Positions 3,360 through 9,620 of a stretch of DNA of 64,000 nt are shown piece by piece. The stretch is from an uncultured Candidatus Binatia bacterium. GTDB lineage: Bacteria > Desulfobacterota > Binatia > UBA9968 > JAJDTQ01. The stretch spans positions 2,720,001 to 2,784,000 of the forward strand of contig OZ219754.1 in the NCBI GenBank assembly GCA_964291295.2, read 5' to 3'. The position numbers were made by a program, and so were the translations under genes. The notes below the pieces were generated by a model. The model was not told the DNA's origin, searched no databases, and saw only the letters and a program-made list of their open reading frames with translations. Each line of letters begins with the position of its first letter. Within the stretch, counting starts at the first letter, position 1.

Positions 3360-3383
3360 GGCAGGTTGGGAGATTTCGGCGCC

Positions 3384-4082
3384 ATGGCCTCGGCGAAAAA
3401 GCGTATTCTGCGAAGGGACATCCGTCAGCCGGACCGGTTCATGGTGTGGACCGGCCGATTCCTGGATCTGCTCAGGGCTTACCGGGCGCAGTTGATCTAT
3501 GCGGGTGCCGCGGCGGTGGCGGTGGCGGTGGCCGTGGGTGGCTGGCAGTACTACCGCACCTACCAGCGGGATCTTGCGTTCCGGCACTACGACCAGGGAC
3601 TGCAGGAGTATCGGGAAGGCCGCTACGACGCGGCCGTCGAGACATTCCGCAGTCTCAAGGACCGTGGCGTGGCGCCCTACGACGTTCTTGCCGAACTCTA
3701 CATCGCCAACAGCTTCCTTGCACTCGACCAGCCGGCCAACGCCGTGACGACGCTCGGCGGCTCCGCGGTCGCCGGCCGGGAGGGTTTTCTCAAGCAGGTG
3801 GCGCTCGTGGCCCTCGGTCTGGCCCAGGAAATGAACGGCTCGTGCGAAGAGGCGGTGCAGTCCCTCGACCGTGCTCTGGAGCACCCGGGGCCTTTGCGCC
3901 AGGAAGCCATGCTCGGCAAGGCCCGCTGCAACACCCGGTTGGGCAAGACGCAAGACGCGGTGGACACTTACAAGGCCTATCTCAAGGAATTTCCCGAGGG
4001 CGAGACCGTCGAGGTCGCGTTGCGGATGCAACGGCTGGAAGCCGAATCGGGAAACTCGCCGTCACCGGCCGCGCAGCAATAG
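3384..4082 (+). CDS. Membrane-anchored tetratricopeptide repeat protein (YfgM-like)
   Basis: N-terminal TM helix followed by GWQYY, then TPR helices ending YLKEFPEG. Confidence 0.8.
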   Translation: MASAKKRILRRDIRQPDRFMVWTGRFLDLLRAYRAQLIYAGAAAVAVAVAVGGWQYYRTYQRDLAFRHYDQGLQEYREGRYDAAVETFRSLKDRGVAPYDVLAELYIANSFLALDQPANAVTTLGGSAVAGREGFLKQVALVALGLAQEMNGSCEEAVQSLDRALEHPGPLRQEAMLGKARCNTRLGKTQDAVDTYKAYLKEFPEGETVEVALRMQRLEAESGNSPSPAAQQ

Positions 4083-4497: not shown

Positions 4498-5535
4498 CTA
4501 CCGCTCCACCGGCAACTCCGCGTCGTTCCATGCCAGCAGGCCGCCGGCCAGATTGGAGACGTCGGTGAAGCCGGAGCGGCCCAGGATGGCCGCGGCGGTC
4601 GCACTGCGCATGCCGGCACGGCAGAGGGTCACCACCGGGCCTTTCTTGTGCTCGTCGATCTCCTCCAGGCGCGTTACAAGCTCCCGGAGCGGGATGAGCA
4701 CACTGCCGGGCAGGTGGCCGAGCTCGCCCGAGTATTCGGCAGGCTCGCGCACGTCCACCAGCAGCGGCCGGGTGTCCGAAGCCAGCAGGCGCCGGAGCCC
4801 CTGGATGTCGATTTCCCGAACCTTCTTGAGCTCGCTCCAATCCGGAAAGCTGATCTGGCCGCTGCCGAGGGCGGACTGGTTGGGCTGCAGGACCTCCTGG
4901 ATATTCTGCGGCGGCGAGAGCTGGAGGTTGTTCATCAGGTCGATGTATTCCTGCCGGGTTCGGTTGGCGAGGCGCGGGTTGCCCTGCCTTTCCCGGCCGA
5001 TGGTGGATGTGGTGTTGCCGCGGTAGTCGTGGCCTGGGCGAACGATGGTTCCGTCCGGCAGCGTAAAGAGCTTCCGGGTGACGGCGTCGAACTGGGCACC
5101 GGCGTCGCCGCCCGCGAAGTCGGTACGTCCGGAGCCGCCGATGAACAGGGTGTCACCGGTGAGCACGTTCCCTTCCACCAGCAGGCTCATGCCGTCCGGG
5201 GTGTGTCCGGGGGTATGCAGGACGCGAATCCTGAGATCTCCGACTTGAATCTCGTCGTCCTCCTCCAGGTGCATGTCGACGGCCGGACTCGGCGCCCACT
5301 TCTGCATGGCGAATCGCGACCCCACCAGAAAGCGCAATTGCGGGCAGCCGCTGAGATGATCGGCGTGGGTATGGGTATCGATGACCAGATCCAGCGTGAG
5401 GCGGTGGTAGGCCAGCACCGCGAGATATCGGTCCACATGGGCGTGGAGGGGATCCACCAGGATAGCGTGTCCCCTGCCCTCATCGCCGATCAGGTAGGTC
5501 TTGCAGCTTTCACCGTTGAGTTCGCTCAGGATCAT
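4498..5535 (-). CDS. Persulfide dioxygenase (ETHE1-like MBL fold)-rhodanese fusion
   Basis: THTHADHLSG, HTPGHT, GDTLF, GRTDF, PGHDY; C-terminal rhodanese with DVRE and CRAGMRS. Confidence 0.9.
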   Translation of the reverse strand: MILSELNGESCKTYLIGDEGRGHAILVDPLHAHVDRYLAVLAYHRLTLDLVIDTHTHADHLSGCPQLRFLVGSRFAMQKWAPSPAVDMHLEEDDEIQVGDLRIRVLHTPGHTPDGMSLLVEGNVLTGDTLFIGGSGRTDFAGGDAGAQFDAVTRKLFTLPDGTIVRPGHDYRGNTTSTIGRERQGNPRLANRTRQEYIDLMNNLQLSPPQNIQEVLQPNQSALGSGQISFPDWSELKKVREIDIQGLRRLLASDTRPLLVDVREPAEYSGELGHLPGSVLIPLRELVTRLEEIDEHKKGPVVTLCRAGMRSATAAAILGRSGFTDVSNLAGGLLAWNDAELPVER

Positions 5536-5556: not shown

Positions 5557-6714
5557 TCAGAAATAACGCCAGAGCCACCATTTCTCGAACAGGAGCTTGC
5601 TCCAGTAGATCATTCGGGATGGGCCCCAGGAACGTGAGTCGGTGGCGCCGAAGGGGGGCCATCCCTGAGGGTATATGGTGCGGTTGGCGGCGGCGCGTCC
5701 CGCGCCGCAGGCGAGCAGTCATATCGTGTGCAGGTGCAGGGTCGACAACTCTCCTTCTCCGGTGATCTCCGCCACGAGATTGTCCGCCACCACGTCGGCT
5801 TCCTGGTGCGCCACGCCGCCGGCCTTGGAGGCGGGCATGTCGGCGCAGTCGCCGATGGCGTAGACATTTTCCCACTTGGTCTCCAGGGTATCGTAGTCCA
5901 CCTGGATGCCGGTCTCCCGTTCCGCCAGCCCGCATTCGTAGAGCACTCTGGAGGGGCGGTGCGGCGGTACCATGAACAGGAGGTCGTAGGAAAGCTCGTA
6001 GCCGTAGAGGCCGTGGACCCGCTGCTTCTCGGCGTCGATGGACTGCACGATGAAGTCGTAGTGGATGGAGACGTTGCGTTTCCTGCTCTGGGAGTCCATC
6101 CACACCAATGGCAGGTGTTCCTCGCCGGCGGGCTCGGGCTCCGGGGTGAAGTATTGCAGGGCCACCAGGTCGCGGATGTTGCGTTCCTTGAAATAACTAT
6201 CCAGCATCCACTGGGCTTCATAGGGTGCGGGCGGGCAACGGTAGGGGCCCTGCGGCACACCCACCAGCACGCGTCCTTCGCGGAAATGGTCGAGGGTGGT
6301 CCTGAGCCGCAGGGCGGCGTCCATTTCCCAGGGATGGTGCGCCCCTTCGGCGAAGCCGGGAAGCAGGTCGGGTCTGACCTCAAGACCCAGGGAGACGATC
6401 AGGTAGTCATAGGGGATGGCGGTACTTTCGAGAACCACCTGCCGGCGGCCGGGATCGATCCCCAGGATCTCCGCCTGGAGCACCCGGAGGTTGCGCTTTT
6501 CCAGACGCTTGAGCTTTCGCGTGATATCCTCGGGGCGGCGTTGCCCCACCATCACGAACAGGAAAGCCGGCATGTAGACGTGGTCGGCCCGGCGGTCGAT
6601 GAGGATGATGTCGTGGTCCGCTCCCAGCGCGCGGCCGAGCTTGGTGGCCGCGACGATGCCGCCGCTGCCGCCGCCGAGTACGACGATCTGTTTGCGTCCG
6701 TTGTGGTAATGCAT
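5557..6714 (-). CDS. sqr: Sulfide:quinone oxidoreductase (type III-like), predicted selenoprotein, 385 aa with UGA/Sec at codon 332 (5719-5721)
   Basis: GGGSGG FAD motif, YRCPPAPYE, VYAIGD, KAGGVAHQEA. The frame continues past TGA for 53 codons into the typical SQR tail PSRMIYWSKLLFEKWWLWRYF. Confidence 0.85.
5690..5708 (-). promoter_or_regulatory. Bacterial SECIS-like hairpin
   Basis: mRNA reads UGA-CUGCUCGCCU-GCGGCGCG-GGA-CGCGCCGC: perfect 8-bp stem, G-led apical loop, stem starting 10 nt after UGA. Confidence 0.75.
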
Positions 6715-6732: not shown

Positions 6733-6942
6733 TCAGGAGGCCGTCCGCTGCCGCCGCCGCGCGCGCAGGGCCAGACCTTTCAGGCTGCGCATGCGCCGGT
6801 CCCGCCACATGCGCTGCTCCTGCCGTCCTTCGTCGGTCAGTTCCGATTCGAACCGCGAAGTGCCCCGGATCAGGAGCAGCACCAGGAAATCGGAACATCC
6901 CTTGAGCTGCTCCGCCATCCACGTGAAGAGTCCGCCGGACAT
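6733..6942 (-). CDS. Small hypothetical protein (69 aa, basic C-terminus)
   Basis: Fills the gap between the DHDPS-like gene and sqr on the same strand; no recognisable motif. Confidence 0.4.
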   Translation of the reverse strand: MSGGLFTWMAEQLKGCSDFLVLLLIRGTSRFESELTDEGRQEQRMWRDRRMRSLKGLALRARRRQRTAS

Positions 6943-6955
6943 CACAAACCGTCCA

Positions 6956-7921
6956 CTAGCGAAGGAACGTGTCTTCGTGGGAGAGCTGGATCGCCGCCTG
7001 GTCAAAGGCCGCTTCGTCCGGCTCACCGTCTCCCAGGATGCCGATCTGACTCAGAAACTGCCCGATCTGGACATGATCCCTGGGACTTACCGGAGCATAG
7101 GGCCGGGCCGGGTCGCCGATATCCACCCCGAAGTGCTTCAGTGCCGACTTCATGATCGGCGGCAGCCCGTAGGCGCCCCATTTCCCCGGGAAGAGCGTAA
7201 AGCAGCGCTGCCAGTAGCGCGCCTTGTCGATGTCCCCCTCCCGGAACGCCCTCGCCACCCTGGCGCCGATGCGGGTGCCCGGAGGCGGCATGGTGGCCCC
7301 GGCACCGCCCATCATGAGGGTGGTCAGCAGCGGCTGCATGGTGGTGAAGTAGCTGGCCTTGCCGGCCAGGTGCACCTGCTCGATGAGTCGCGTGATCTTG
7401 GTGATGTCCCGCGAACTTTCCTTGAAGTAGTCGACTTTTTCCAGTTCGCTCAGCCGCACGAAGGCATCCAGCGGCGGATCGGCGCCGGGGCCGGGATTGT
7501 GGTAGGCGACGATGGGCAGCGGGCTGACCGACGCCACCTCGGTGAAGAACTGCACCAGGTCGGCGATGGTGGGCTGCCCGCCCCACGGACGGATGGGCAT
7601 CAGCACCTGGATGAGGTCGCCGCCCGCGGCGGCGGCATGGTCCGCCAGTTCGAGAACGGTGTCGATGGAATGGCTGGACGCCCCGAGAATGACCGGCACG
7701 CGCTTGTTGACGATTTCGGTGGCGCGCCGCATGACGTCCTTGCGTTCCTGGAGGGACAGCACGGTGTATTCCGAGGCTTCGACGGCGGCCACGGAGATGG
7801 CATCGCAGTCGGCCACGAGAAATTCGATCTCCCGGGCCAGCGCATTGTAGTCAACTTTCCCGTCGTCCGTGAAGGGCGTAAGCGCCGCTCCTATGATTCC
7901 ACTGATGGGCTTCGCCAGCAT
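6956..7921 (-). CDS. Dihydrodipicolinate synthase/N-acetylneuraminate lyase family aldolase
   Basis: AALTPF..DGKVD, RVPVILG, YHNP, Schiff-base Lys in YFKESS. Confidence 0.9.
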   Translation of the reverse strand: MLAKPISGIIGAALTPFTDDGKVDYNALAREIEFLVADCDAISVAAVEASEYTVLSLQERKDVMRRATEIVNKRVPVILGASSHSIDTVLELADHAAAAGGDLIQVLMPIRPWGGQPTIADLVQFFTEVASVSPLPIVAYHNPGPGADPPLDAFVRLSELEKVDYFKESSRDITKITRLIEQVHLAGKASYFTTMQPLLTTLMMGGAGATMPPPGTRIGARVARAFREGDIDKARYWQRCFTLFPGKWGAYGLPPIMKSALKHFGVDIGDPARPYAPVSPRDHVQIGQFLSQIGILGDGEPDEAAFDQAAIQLSHEDTFLR

Positions 7922-7992
7922 CCATCACCTCTCGGGGATTGAGTCGGGACAACCGATGGTCATGTGTTCCGGGGAATGGACCCGAATCGCCG

Positions 7993-8643
7993 TTAGATCT
8001 CGGCGACGATTCTGGCATGGGCGGCGTCGCTTCCCCGCACCTTCAGGGGCAGCGCCATGATACGGCTTTTCCGTCCCGCGATGGCCCCCAGATTGGTTAC
8101 GTTCTCGGCGATCAGGATGTCGTTTCCCAGCAGGGTCCGATGTACCGGGAAGGCAAATCCCTTGGGCCGCAAGGGGGTCGGCAGATCCACCGTGATACAG
8201 TCGATGCCGAACAGCTTCACCCCGCGCGCCACGATCCATTCCGCCGCATCGACGGACAGATAGGGGTGCATGTTGTATGTTTCGCTTTCGAATTTCTCGT
8301 CCCATCCGGTATGCAGCATGAGGATGTCTCCCCGCTCGACGGGGACTCCCGAGCCTTCGAGGTCGGCAGCCGTGACCTCCTCCCCCCCGCTCTTCTCCAC
8401 GGAGATGACGACACCCGGACCGACGAACGCATCAAGGGATAGTTCCTCGATGGACTTGCCGTCGGGTATGATGTGAACCGGCGCGTCCACGTGAGTTCCG
8501 GCATGACACGGCAGGGTGATCTCGGTGACATTGAGGGGATGGCCCTTGCCGAGGTCGAAGAACCGCTGCACGTGCACGTCCGGAAGCACGGGGATCTTGG
8601 GCATGCCGTCGTAGATTATCCGTGAAAGATCGATCATGGACAT
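7993..8643 (-). CDS. Cyclase family protein (kynurenine formamidase KynB-like)
   Basis: IDLSR, HAGTHVDAPVH, TGW, GID, VHRTLL, ENVTNL. Confidence 0.92.
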   Translation of the reverse strand: MSMIDLSRIIYDGMPKIPVLPDVHVQRFFDLGKGHPLNVTEITLPCHAGTHVDAPVHIIPDGKSIEELSLDAFVGPGVVISVEKSGGEEVTAADLEGSGVPVERGDILMLHTGWDEKFESETYNMHPYLSVDAAEWIVARGVKLFGIDCITVDLPTPLRPKGFAFPVHRTLLGNDILIAENVTNLGAIAGRKSRIMALPLKVRGSDAAHARIVAEI

Positions 8644-8678
8644 GGTGGTGTTCCTGAGGGGTCCGGGCGCCCGCGCTC

Positions 8679-9419
8679 TCAGGTGCGGTGCCAGGCGGCG
8701 TAGATGGCATCCTTGTCGACGAAGGCTCTCCGGATGCCGTCGAAGGCCAGCCAGAACTGGTCCAGGGTCTTCTGCACCGACTGTCGCACCAAGTCCTGCT
8801 GCTGGTCGGTGACGGCGTACTTCCGCACCGCTTCGGGCCCCACCTTCATGTGCTCTTCGTCCACTCCCATGTGAAGCGTCCAGTAGCGGATGTCGTCGCT
8901 TTCCCGGTCGAAGCCGTAATGGGTCGTCAGTCCGGTGACGATGCGGCTCATGCGCTCGCTGGCGGTGCCTTCCAGGCAGAACCCCTGGCAGGCATACAGT
9001 TCCAGCCACGAGCGCTGGTACATCAGCAACTCGCGCCAATCGAGAAACGCCGATGTCTCGGGCAGCGGCCGGACCGAGTCCAGTTCCTCCTTGGACTCGA
9101 AACCGCAGGCCATCGCGAATCTGATGAAAAGGCCCCGGTGGCTGTCGGTGCCGGAGATCTCGCCGGTGCCCTCCTCCACGACATTCTCGATCCACATCCT
9201 CTCCAGCTCGGCGTCGTCGGGACAGCGCCCCAGCATGGCCGCGATGGGCTTGGGGAAGGGCTTGGGGAAAAAAAGATAGAACTGCCCCACGAACCCCTTC
9301 AGCGCCTCCCGGTCGATCTCTCCCCGTTCGATCATCCCGATCATCGGATTGTCCTTGGAGTGCTTGGCGCGAACCGTGTCCATTATTTCGCTTACAAACG
9401 CATCACCGGCAAGAGGCAT
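8679..9419 (-). CDS. Heme-oxygenase-like diiron enzyme (PqqC/CADD/TenA family)
   Basis: ENVVEE..G..SH, CLEG, YWTLHMGVDEEH metal-ligand pattern. Confidence 0.85.
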   Translation of the reverse strand: MPLAGDAFVSEIMDTVRAKHSKDNPMIGMIERGEIDREALKGFVGQFYLFFPKPFPKPIAAMLGRCPDDAELERMWIENVVEEGTGEISGTDSHRGLFIRFAMACGFESKEELDSVRPLPETSAFLDWRELLMYQRSWLELYACQGFCLEGTASERMSRIVTGLTTHYGFDRESDDIRYWTLHMGVDEEHMKVGPEAVRKYAVTDQQQDLVRQSVQKTLDQFWLAFDGIRRAFVDKDAIYAAWHRT

Positions 9420-9620
9420 GAATCGGCTCCTATGAAATCGGCTCCCCGAGTCGGCTCCCCGAGTCTTTCGGGGATTTCCGGTAAAGGCCATCCCTGTACC
9501 GACACGGCGGTGCCGGCAACGCGGGTGGATGTCCTTCACCGCAATGGAAACGGTTGCTTGAGTGGGACTGGTTACTTGAAAGCCCGATGAATGGCAAATG
9601 GCGCCGCTGCTTCCGGACCG

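What the first reader, a model, noticed from the sequence alone, without database searches (positions are those of the whole stretch)
5557..6714. Selenocysteine-containing sulfide:quinone oxidoreductase: in-frame UGA at the second catalytic Cys plus a SECIS-like hairpin
Seen in sequence: the ORF track stops at ...LHLHTI-TGA (5719-5721), but the same frame continues for 53 codons, LLACGAGRAAANRTIYPQGWPPFGATDSRSWGPSRMIYWSKLLFEKWWLWRYF, ending 21 bp before the next gene. Ten nt after the UGA lies a perfect hairpin, GCGGCGCG-GGA-CGCGCCGC. Established: SQRs use two redox Cys, one in CPxAPxE (present here as RCPPAPYE) and a second in the C-terminal xxC-(F/Y)xExGxGxA strand. Type III enzymes end in an amphipathic membrane helix of the PSxxxxWxKxxFEKxW type. 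Bacterial SECIS elements are stem-loops just 3' of UGA with a G in the apical loop. Inference: the UGA occupies the second catalytic Cys position (TI-U-LLACGAGRA), giving a Cys/Sec active site, with an extra Cys four residues on. SQR is not among the classic bacterial selenoprotein families I know. Standard gene callers would annotate this as truncated.
Basis: partly seen in the sequence, partly recalled or inferred. Interest (0 to 1): 0.92.

Follow-up and report, generated by a model that had tools for sequence, protein, structure and literature searches.

The report
Selenocysteine sulfide:quinone reductase-like enzyme in Binatia
This gene is not truncated: its internal UGA very probably encodes selenocysteine at a catalytic cysteine site of a sulfide:quinone-reductase-type enzyme, a recently described kind of selenoprotein, here in a separate lineage that databases list as a shortened protein.

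Summary
The gene (5557-6714, minus strand) has an in-frame TGA at 5719-5721, 53 further in-frame codons, and a perfect 8-bp hairpin 10 nt after the TGA.

The TGA is not a defect:
- It is present in 76 of 76 related genome loci and 80 of 80 metagenome loci (64-94% identity).
- The tail is always 53 codons and evolves like coding sequence.
- The only three four-fold sites (of 116) that are at least 90% conserved lie in the hairpin stem.
- selA, selB, selD and tRNA-Sec are present in the genome.
- The codon aligns with human SQOR Cys379, and 116 of 151 homologues have Cys there.

The novelty claim is not: a type III SQR selenoprotein subtype (NCBIfam NF049943) was published in 2025 and listed in a 2026 review.

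This protein scores 256.8 bits against that model's cut-off of 525. On a tree it forms a separate clade, and joining the two Sec clades is rejected (AU p 0.00013). It is a second, apparently independent Sec-SQR lineage, found across one order of Binatia and annotated in databases as a 329-331-residue protein.

Catalytic function is inferred, not shown.

The parts
5557..6714 (-). Complete gene of a 385-residue selenocysteine-containing SQR-type flavoprotein (ATG 6714-6712; final stop TGA 5559-5557)
   Evidence: Searches give the reading frame. Pfam Pyr_redox_2 and FCSD_central match. AlphaFold2 model mean pLDDT 95.2. Best Foldseek matches are human, Aquifex aeolicus and Acidithiobacillus ferrooxidans SQR, TM 0.84-0.87.
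5719..5721 (-). In-frame UGA, codon 332, read as selenocysteine at the C-terminal redox-Cys position
   Evidence: TGA in 76 of 76 genome loci and 80 of 80 metagenome loci. Aligns with human SQOR Cys379. The column is Cys in 116 of 151 representatives. Unchanged in contigs of 3 runs.
5690..5708 (-). SECIS-like hairpin: 8-bp stem and GGA loop in this genus. The core conserved across the clade is 6 bp (5707-5702 with 5696-5691) with a loop NGGNC or GGN
   Evidence: core pairs are kept in 64-68 of 68 distinct sequences, and 9 of the 11 departures are G-U wobbles; of 116 four-fold sites with a conserved residue, only 3 are at least 90% conserved, and all 3 are stem third positions (G337, R340, A341).
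5560..5718 (-). 53-codon tail after the UGA: beta strands 329-337, 340-347 and 359-366, and a C-terminal helix 367-384 (5616-5563), presumably the membrane-binding helix
   Evidence: Tail length is 53 in 70 of 70 full-length loci, with final stops TAG 30, TGA 24 and TAA 16. Non-consensus fraction at codon positions 1/2/3 is 0.098/0.068/0.349. Secondary structure.
6235..6237 (-). Cys160 in RCPPAPYE, the first redox Cys (equivalent to human Cys201)
   Evidence: column at least 90% Cys.
6658..6675 (-). N-terminal FAD-binding glycine motif GGGSGG (residues 14-19)
   Evidence: sequence. G14 and G19 are invariant and G16 is at least 90% conserved in alignment A2.
4498..5535 (-). Downstream gene, 21 nt away: metallo-beta-lactamase fold (persulfide-dioxygenase-like) fused to a rhodanese domain. 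A neighbour only in the window's genus
   Evidence: Pfam Lactamase_B and Rhodanese. The script counted 22 of 71 loci with room downstream as having it directly downstream on the same strand; all such loci are from the window's genus (SQR identity at least 88%). One more locus (L102) has it about 1.4 kb away, and one distant locus (L115) has a 56%-identical copy on the opposite strand.
6733..6942 (-). Conserved small ORF (69 aa here) between the DHDPS-family gene and the SQR gene; no known family
   Evidence: No Pfam hit. A homologous 60-100 aa ORF with the core motif ...SD.L...L..TS.F..ELT..G..EQ..WR..R.RNL.GL was seen by eye in most loci of the Binatia clade, but not in the subclade labelled Acidobacteriota.
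6956..7921 (-). DHDPS-family (class I aldolase/lyase) gene, the neighbour conserved across the whole clade
   Evidence: Pfam DHDPS. Homologues at 62-94% identity were found in 74 of 79 loci, in almost all directly upstream on the same strand.
7993..8628 (-). Putative cyclase (kynurenine-formamidase-like) gene, same strand
   Evidence: Pfam Cyclase. Seen in 38 of 56 distant loci, a count limited by the 3-kb flanks.
8679..9539 (-). Haem-oxygenase-like iron-containing redox enzyme (Haem_oxygenas_2 / TENA-PQQC) gene, same strand
   Evidence: Seen in 33 of 56 distant loci, a count limited by the flanks.

Best explanation
The gene encodes a full-length, 385-residue membrane-peripheral flavoprotein of the sulfide:quinone oxidoreductase (SQR) fold. 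Codon 332 (UGA) is decoded as selenocysteine by the SelA/SelB/SelD/tRNA-Sec system of this Binatia bacterium, directed by a G+C-rich hairpin that starts 10 nt downstream.

Sec replaces the C-terminal redox cysteine (human SQOR Cys379). In the mechanism proposed for human SQOR, that residue is the leaving group when HS- opens the active-site bridge. It then carries the outgoing sulfane sulfur, and finally attacks the Cys201-flavin adduct to release reduced FAD, which reduces quinone. A selenolate is a better nucleophile and leaving group with a lower pKa, so it should speed exactly these steps. This effect is inferred.

The lineage is a clade of its own. It is Sec-only in all DNA examined, found across one order of Binatia, and distinct from the curated Sec-SQR family NF049943. 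Sec was most likely recruited to the same catalytic position twice.

Shown here: the UGA, tail and hairpin are conserved under selection; the Sec machinery is present; the fold is SQR; and the codon is homologous to the catalytic Cys. Inferred: actual Se incorporation, sulfide and quinone as substrates, and the kinetic benefit.
For: UGA and tail:
- TGA at the aligned codon in 76 of 76 genome loci and 80 of 80 metagenome loci, at 64-94% protein identity.
- In 61 genomes of the order, 53 have the orthologue, each with exactly one TGA. No orthologue at 60% identity or more that spans the site lacks it.
- The tail is 53 codons in 70 of 70 full-length loci, with all three stop codons used at its end.
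- Its third codon positions vary about 4-fold more than positions 1 and 2, as they do upstream of the UGA.

Hairpin:
- The core stem is kept in 64-68 of 68 distinct sequences, and changes are mostly wobble-compatible.
- Only 3 of 116 four-fold sites are at least 90% conserved, and all 3 lie in the stem.
- One database orthologue with Cys at the site (P0157, 67% identity) has EPGK where the Sec forms have GAGR.

Sec machinery:
- selA, selB and selD lie in one cluster, selD itself contains a TGA, and tRNA-Sec scores 75.2 bits.
- selA was found in 52 of the 53 genomes that carry the gene.
- selD's own UGA is followed by a similar G+C-rich hairpin with a small loop.

Catalytic site and fold:
- Alignment to human SQOR Cys201 and Cys379.
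- Cys in 116 of 151 homologues at the site.
- Model pLDDT 95.2; the top structural matches are SQRs.
- A persulfide-dioxygenase-like/rhodanese fusion lies 21 nt downstream.

Separate clade:
- 256.8 bits against a cut-off of 525.
- The nearest full-length Cys homologues in the representative library are at most 39% identical.
- On the tree the two Sec clades sit on opposite sides of a 100* branch, and the AU test rejects joining them (p 0.00013).
Against: - No direct evidence of selenium in the protein, or even of expression.
- No compensatory (both-sided) base changes in the stem, so the structure rests on synonymous-site conservation rather than covariation.
- The hairpin region alone is not an outlier against shuffles (z -1.11), and Rfam holds no matching family.
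- The persulfide-dioxygenase/rhodanese neighbour that fits sulfide oxidation is confined to the window's genus.
- The neighbours conserved across the clade (DHDPS-family, cyclase, haem-oxygenase-like) do not suggest sulfide oxidation.
- The AU test ran on a 29-row subset under LG+G4, after the free tree had been seen.
- The Cys orthologue P0157 is known only as a database protein; its DNA was not recovered.
Confidence: 0.85

Rival explanations
1. It is a genuine selenoprotein of the SQR fold, but sulfide is not its physiological substrate. It would act on another thiol, persulfide, polysulfide or selenium compound, as the redox step of the conserved gene set haem-oxygenase-like / cyclase / DHDPS-family / small protein.
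For: The DHDPS-family gene has a homologue in 74 of 79 loci, almost always directly upstream on the same strand. The cyclase and haem-oxygenase-like genes are seen in 38 and 33 of 56 distant loci despite short flanks. Spacings in the window are short: 13, 18 and 21 nt around the small ORF and the SQR gene. The persulfide-dioxygenase/rhodanese gene is a neighbour only within one genus. The clade is no more than 39% identical to any full-length Cys homologue in the representative library and is not a member of any curated SQR model.
Against: Both SQR redox positions, the fold and the C-terminal helix are kept. Where a sulfur-metabolism neighbour exists, it is the classical SQR partner. Conserved gene order within one order of bacteria can be inherited without functional coupling.
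Confidence: 0.2
2. It belongs to the already described family NF049943 (type III SQR, selenoprotein subtype), as a divergent member with a single origin of Sec.
For: NF049943 is the best NCBIfam hit (E 3.2e-76). The Sec is at the same alignment column and both show HxxU.
Against: The score is 256.8 bits against a cut-off of 525, no better than unrelated Cys homologues such as P0005 and P0008 (221 bits each). True NF049943 relatives, including Cys forms P0071 (588 bits) and P0031 (534 bits), cluster apart with 100* support. The AU test rejects one Sec clade. The SECIS hairpins and the residues after U differ: LLAxGAGRAAAN against MVVTGYEKGSLL.
Confidence: 0.06
3. The UGA is read through as an ordinary amino acid (Trp, Cys or Gly by near-cognate decoding or an altered code) rather than as Sec.
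For: Nothing here measures which residue is inserted.
Against: UGA also serves as the true stop of this same gene in the window and in 24 of 70 loci. The complete Sec machinery is present and co-occurs with the gene. A conserved hairpin lies at SECIS distance. The homologous residue is Cys, the usual counterpart of Sec.
Confidence: 0.04
4. It is a truncated gene or pseudogene, or a sequencing error: translation ends at codon 331 and the tail is decaying.
For: This is how gene callers treat it. Most of the 120 best database relatives are 329-331 aa long.
Against: 156 of 156 independent loci keep TGA. The tail has constant length and a purifying-selection signature, and holds some of the most conserved columns of the protein. 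The tail forms strands and a helix that are integral to the SQR fold. Three runs agree on the TGA.
Confidence: 0.01

Closest known systems
[quoted passage not shown] Predicted as an NAD(P)/FAD-dependent oxidoreductase selenoprotein in Desulfosediminicola by deep-Sep (PMC12013277, passages read); listed with motif HxxU in the review PMC13188914 (passage read).
   Same: SQR-type flavoprotein with Sec at the same alignment column (the C-terminal redox Cys), preceded by HxxU. The UGA is followed by a hairpin. It occurs in the same phylum as the window's genome by the tool's grouping.
   Different: About 31-34% identity. The score of 256.8 bits is under the cut-off of 525. The clade is separate with strong support and the AU test rejects a joint clade. 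The SECIS sequence and position differ: GAGAAGGGGUCCCUUCUC starting 21 nt after the UGA, against GCGGCGCGGGACGCGCCGC starting 10 nt after it. The proteins are 423-452 aa against 385 aa. NF049943 has close Cys members (P0071, P0031). For this clade only one Cys orthologue was seen (P0157).
Human mitochondrial SQOR (PDB 6oi5, 8dhk), type II SQR
   Same: Best sequence and fold match among solved structures (E 4.9e-31; TM 0.84). Cys201 and Cys379 align with Cys160 and U332. The mechanism in PMC11039317 (passages read) gives the role of the replaced residue.
   Different: 22% identity. Human SQOR has Cys rather than Sec at the site. The membrane-binding C-terminus differs.
Bacterial SQRs of Aquifex aeolicus (3hyv) and Acidithiobacillus ferrooxidans (3t2z and variants), type I
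   Same: Same fold (TM 0.84-0.87), with a two-Cys redox centre and C-terminal amphipathic helices (the latter recalled).
   Different: 21-25% identity. phmmer aligns the A. ferrooxidans chains over the N-terminal half only. The third, flavin-linked Cys of type I enzymes (recalled) was not examined here.
Other Sec-containing pyridine-nucleotide-disulfide-oxidoreductase-fold proteins, such as mammalian thioredoxin reductase (recalled), and the oxidoreductase domain fused or adjacent to SelD (TIGR03169)
   Same: A flavoprotein disulfide-reductase fold linked to selenium chemistry.
   Different: Thioredoxin reductase carries Sec in a C-terminal GCUG extension rather than in the core redox pair (recalled). 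TIGR03169 scores only 62.7 bits against a cut-off of 310.

Membership tests
Bacterial selenoprotein (SelB/SECIS-dependent UGA decoding) | In-frame UGA conserved among orthologues, with a conserved coding region downstream | tested here: met
   156 of 156 loci have TGA. The 53-codon tail is present in 70 of 70 full-length loci, with codon-position variability 0.098/0.068/0.349.
Bacterial selenoprotein (SelB/SECIS-dependent UGA decoding) | Stem-loop immediately 3' of the UGA with G in the apical loop (the bSECIS criteria are recalled, not run) | tested here: met
   The hairpin starts 10 nt after the UGA, with loop GGA or NGGNC. Synonymous sites of the stem are uniquely conserved, 3 of 116. No compensatory changes were seen. 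bSECISearch and deep-Sep were not available.
Bacterial selenoprotein (SelB/SECIS-dependent UGA decoding) | selA, selB, selD and tRNA-Sec in the genome | tested here: met
   All score over their curated cut-offs: selA 567, selB 364.9, selD 373.8 and tRNA-Sec 75.2 bits.
Bacterial selenoprotein (SelB/SECIS-dependent UGA decoding) | Homologues with Cys at the UGA position | tested here: met
   Cys in 116 of 151 representatives. One orthologue at 67% identity has Cys (P0157).
Bacterial selenoprotein (SelB/SECIS-dependent UGA decoding) | Selenium demonstrably incorporated (75Se labelling or mass spectrometry) | not testable with these tools
   No protein data were available.
Sulfide:quinone oxidoreductase (SQR/SQOR) | Two-dinucleotide-fold flavoprotein with an N-terminal FAD motif and the SQR/FCSD fold | tested here: met
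   Pyr_redox_2 and FCSD_central match. GGGSGG is conserved. The top Foldseek hits are SQRs, TM 0.84-0.87.
Sulfide:quinone oxidoreductase (SQR/SQOR) | Redox pair: Cys in CPxAPxE plus the C-terminal Cys | tested here: met
   Cys160 in RCPPAPYE, and U332 at the second position.
Sulfide:quinone oxidoreductase (SQR/SQOR) | C-terminal amphipathic helix or helices for membrane and quinone access | tested here: inconclusive
   The model predicts a terminal helix at 367-384, and the motif K..FEKWW is conserved. Membrane binding itself was not tested.
Sulfide:quinone oxidoreductase (SQR/SQOR) | Sulfide-dependent quinone reduction | not testable with these tools
   An enzyme assay is needed.
NCBIfam NF049943 (type III SQR, selenoprotein subtype) | HMM score at or above the curated cut-off of 525 bits | tested here: not met
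   256.8 bits for the protein and 250 bits on the genome.
NCBIfam NF049943 (type III SQR, selenoprotein subtype) | Falls within the clade of model members | tested here: not met
   Opposite sides of a 100* branch on a 79-row tree. AU p 0.00013 against one Sec clade on a 29-row subset.
NCBIfam NF049943 (type III SQR, selenoprotein subtype) | Sec at the HxxU position | tested here: met
   HTIU here; HATU in relatives of model members. The truncated member P0049 ends at model position 330.

The most novel reading that the evidence does not exclude
Selenocysteine was recruited independently, at the same catalytic cysteine, in two distant SQR lineages. In this lineage the enzyme is not a stand-alone sulfide detoxifier. 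It is the quinone-linked redox module of a conserved, uncharacterised gene set (haem-oxygenase-like di-iron enzyme, cyclase-like hydrolase, DHDPS-family lyase, a 60-70-residue protein of no known family) that processes an unknown sulfur- or selenium-containing metabolite in soil and sponge-associated Binatia.
Probability: 0.15. Interest if true: 0.65.

Novelty: new member of a known kind. Interest (0 to 1): 0.5.

Why it matters
1. Annotation. More than 150 public assemblies, and most of the closest database proteins, carry this gene as a 329-331-residue fragment. The one curated Sec-SQR model does not rescue it. A clade-specific model would correct a gene that is near-universal in one order of Binatia.

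2. Evolution. Two separate SQR lineages put Sec at the same redox position. This points to a real catalytic advantage at the residue that carries and releases the sulfane sulfur. It also provides natural Sec/Cys pairs (P0157, and the Cys members of NF049943) for testing that advantage.

3. Physiology. Binatia are uncultured. A selenium-dependent sulfide-oxidising step, with a persulfide-dioxygenase/rhodanese partner in this genus, bears on their sulfur metabolism and trace-element needs.

None of this changes the textbook picture, because Sec-SQR as such was reported in 2025.

Tried and rejected
Single-sequence folding of the hairpin region gave no significance (z -1.11). I rely on comparative data instead.

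RNAalifold and pair counting found no compensatory changes. The stem is nearly invariant, so covariation cannot be used.

Rfam (E up to 10) gave only chance-level hits. The promoter/terminator scan found nothing informative.

The AU test on the full 79-row set under the mixture model did not finish in four calls. I replaced it with a 29-row subset (29 of the 79 rows, chosen to keep both Sec clades and their nearest Cys rows) under LG+G4.

The metagenome scan with the Cys orthologue P0157 did not return its own contig (best match 76%). Its Cys codon and the absence of a hairpin are therefore unverified at the DNA level.

P0160 (64% identity, Asn at the site) and P0158 (a frameshifted read-through) were looked at and set aside.

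Truncated representatives P0047 and P0026 end just before the Cys column.

No RNA holder was listed for the stretch, so nothing can be said about expression.

Submitters' labels such as Verrucomicrobiia and Chloroflexota for two loci belong to genomes that the genome tool places in the window's order (G048, G051). I therefore did not claim transfer to other phyla. The kinship of the loci labelled Acidobacteriota could not be obtained.

Literature searches: 'Binatia'+'selenocysteine' and 'Binatota'+'selenoprotein' found 0 papers each. The BSepDB paper's main text does not mention sulfide, quinone or Binatia. Supplements, and the alignment in Fig. 2D of the deep-Sep paper, could not be seen and may include members of this clade. 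The groundwater-MAG paper cited in the review was not read.

In one search my script did not resolve L128 (first stop TGA at residue 340). It also showed that the TGA reported for G352 lies upstream of the start, so that copy is a Cys form.
Full report
OBSERVATION. On the minus strand an ORF runs from ATG 6714 to TGA 5721-5719 (331 codons...LHLHTI). The same frame continues for 53 codons to a second TGA at 5559-5557, 21 nt before the next gene. Ten nucleotides after the first TGA lies GCGGCGCG-GGA-CGCGCCGC (5708-5690). Taken alone, the hairpin is not unusual for this G+C-rich DNA (z -1.11).

WHAT THE PROTEIN IS. The read-through product matches Pfam Pyr_redox_2 and FCSD_central. Its best solved relatives by sequence are human SQOR (E 4.9e-31), flavocytochrome c sulfide dehydrogenases, and archaeal and bacterial SQRs. 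An AlphaFold2 model from a 101-sequence alignment has mean pLDDT 95.2. The residues after the UGA form three strands and a terminal helix (367-384) that are part of the fold. Foldseek ranks human, Aquifex aeolicus and Acidithiobacillus ferrooxidans SQR first (TM 0.84-0.87).

In the phmmer alignment Cys160 (RCPPAPYE) pairs with chain residue 161 of human SQOR, and U332 pairs with chain residue 339. One offset of 40 makes these Cys201 and Cys379, the active-site trisulfide pair (PMC11039317, passages read). Among 151 library representatives, 116 have Cys in the U332 column, and most of the rest are fragments.

IS THE UGA DECODED?

Conservation of the codon:
- All 76 genome loci that span the site have TGA there.
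- All 80 further metagenome loci have it too. Identities range from 64 to 94%.
- In a defined sample of 61 genomes of the same order, 53 carry the orthologue, each with exactly one TGA. The eight without it include three genomes under 90% complete.

The tail:
- It is 53 codons in 70 of 70 full-length loci and ends in TAG (30), TGA (24) or TAA (16).
- Its columns are among the best conserved in the protein.
- Its non-consensus fractions at codon positions 1/2/3 are 0.098/0.068/0.349, against 0.158/0.108/0.391 for the 30 codons upstream.

The hairpin:
- The core 6-bp stem is kept in 64-68 of 68 distinct sequences.
- 9 of the 11 departures are G-U wobbles, and there are no compensatory changes.
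- Of 116 four-fold-degenerate codon columns with a conserved residue, the median major-allele frequency at the third position is 0.57. Only three columns reach 0.9 (0.97-0.99): Gly337, Arg340 and Ala341. All three are stem positions, with T as the only alternative. This is RNA-level constraint rather than codon bias.

The machinery:
- The genome has selA, selB and selD in one cluster, selD itself with a TGA, and a tRNA-Sec.
- selA is present in 58 of the 61 genomes of the order, and in 52 of the 53 that carry the gene.
- selD's own UGA is followed by a comparable hairpin.

Sequencing error is excluded by this conservation and by three runs that agree on the codon.

IS IT KNOWN? Yes, as a kind. 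[quoted passage not shown] The 2026 review PMC13188914 lists it with motif HxxU and cites the deep-Sep paper. That paper, PMC12013277, predicted an NAD(P)/FAD-dependent oxidoreductase selenoprotein in two Desulfosediminicola species.

This protein, however, scores 256.8 bits against a cut-off of 525. That is about the same as arbitrary Cys homologues (221 bits), whereas real members score 525-588, Cys forms included. In a search of 1.84 billion representatives, the hits drop from truncated relatives of this clade (58-71% identity) straight to full-length Cys proteins at 39% or less.

Genomes of the same phylum contain the other Sec form (...YDGHAT-U-[M/L]VVTGYEKGSLL), with a different hairpin placed 21 nt after the UGA.

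On a 79-row maximum-likelihood tree this clade (17 rows, support 99) and the NF049943-like Sec clade (6 rows, support 99, nested among Cys forms) lie on opposite sides of a branch with support 100. An AU test on a 29-row subset rejects a single Sec clade (log-likelihood difference 149.5, p 0.00013). The test was run after the tree had been seen and under the simpler LG+G4 model.

One orthologue with Cys exists in the protein database (P0157, 67% identity). It reads EPGK where the Sec forms read GAGR, the stretch that encodes the stem. Its DNA could not be recovered.

DISTRIBUTION AND ANNOTATION. Record titles name the relatives mostly as Candidatus Binatia, with older labels such as Deltaproteobacteria and Syntrophobacterales. 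Within the class, the Sec form was found in 32 of 37 sampled genomes of the window's order. It was found in none of 213 genomes of other families; three of those have distant Cys paralogues at 31-36% identity. Most of the 120 best database relatives are 329-331 aa long, named sulfide:quinone oxidoreductase by JGI or NAD(P)/FAD-dependent oxidoreductase by NCBI, which is the form cut at the UGA. Searches for Binatia or Binatota together with selenocysteine or selenoprotein found no paper. Supplements and figures of the selenoproteome papers could not be checked.

CONTEXT. Downstream, 21 nt away, lies a metallo-beta-lactamase (persulfide-dioxygenase-like)/rhodanese fusion, the classical partner of SQR. 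It is adjacent only in the window's genus. The neighbours conserved across the clade lie upstream on the same strand:
- a DHDPS-family gene, found in 74 of 79 loci;
- a small ORF of 60-100 codons with a conserved core and no Pfam match;
- a cyclase-family gene;
- a haem-oxygenase-like iron enzyme.

This leaves room for a substrate other than free sulfide.

MECHANISM. In the scheme proposed for human SQOR (PMC11039317), HS- opens the Cys379-S-Cys201 trisulfide. Cys379 then carries the persulfide that an acceptor removes. The Cys379 thiolate next attacks the Cys201-flavin adduct, restoring the bridge and giving FADH2, which reduces quinone. Sec at this position would make each step easier, through its lower pKa and its better performance as nucleophile and leaving group. 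This is inference from general selenium chemistry (recalled); nothing here measures it.

VERDICT. This is a real, conserved selenoprotein gene. It is a new, apparently independent lineage of a kind first reported in 2025, and it is systematically annotated as a truncated protein.

Noticed in passing
window 6733-6942 (-): A 69-codon ORF sits between the DHDPS-family gene (13 nt upstream) and the SQR gene (18 nt downstream). Homologous ORFs of 60-100 codons with a conserved core (...SD.L...L..TS.F..ELT..G..EQ..WR..R.RNL.GL...) occur at the same place in most Binatia-clade loci. They are absent from the subclade labelled Acidobacteriota. No Pfam family matches.
   Followed up: partly
window 6956-9539 (-): The gene order haem-oxygenase-like iron enzyme, cyclase-family, DHDPS-family, small ORF, Sec-SQR is conserved well beyond the genus, on one strand with short gaps. 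The function of the set is unknown.
   Followed up: partly
window 4498-5535 (-): A metallo-beta-lactamase (persulfide-dioxygenase-like) domain is fused to a C-terminal rhodanese domain. It appears to have been inserted between the SQR gene and the convergent TPR gene (3366-4082, +) only in the window's genus.
   Followed up: partly
G000:C1:687502-691807 (loci L001, L004, L005): selA, selB and selD are adjacent on one strand, and selD itself contains an in-frame TGA followed 27 nt later by a 7-bp hairpin. The organism's selenophosphate synthetase is therefore itself a selenoprotein.
   Followed up: partly
L122-L125, L127, L129 (genomes G111, G332, G274, G182, G148, G359): A second Sec-SQR lineage (NF049943-like, ...YDGHAT-U-[M/L]VVTGYEKGSLL) occurs in the same phylum, with a different SECIS hairpin (GAGAAGGGGUCCCUUCUC). 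Its nearest relatives with Cys (L126, L136, L137) are available for comparison.
   Followed up: partly
proteins P0157, P0160, P0047, P0026, P0016: P0157 is a Cys orthologue (67% identity) with altered residues over the stem-coding stretch. P0160 (64% identity) has Asn at the Sec/Cys position. P0047 and P0026 are more distant homologues that end exactly before the Cys column and may be further unrecognised Sec forms. P0016 (47% identity, ends ...LRLHTI) extends the Sec clade to greater divergence.
   Followed up: no
loci L065, L078 (G048, G051) and L091, L098-L100, L108, L119: Submitters' taxon labels disagree with the genome tool's grouping. Loci labelled Verrucomicrobiia and Chloroflexota lie in genomes placed in the window's order. 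Whether the loci labelled Acidobacteriota reflect real transfer or mislabelling is open.
   Followed up: partly
window 5707-5709 (-), codon 336: The Cys four residues after Sec (U-L-L-A-C) is found only in the window's genus. Other members of the clade have Phe, Tyr or Met there. In this genus its G extends the hairpin stem from 6-7 to 8 base pairs.
   Followed up: yes
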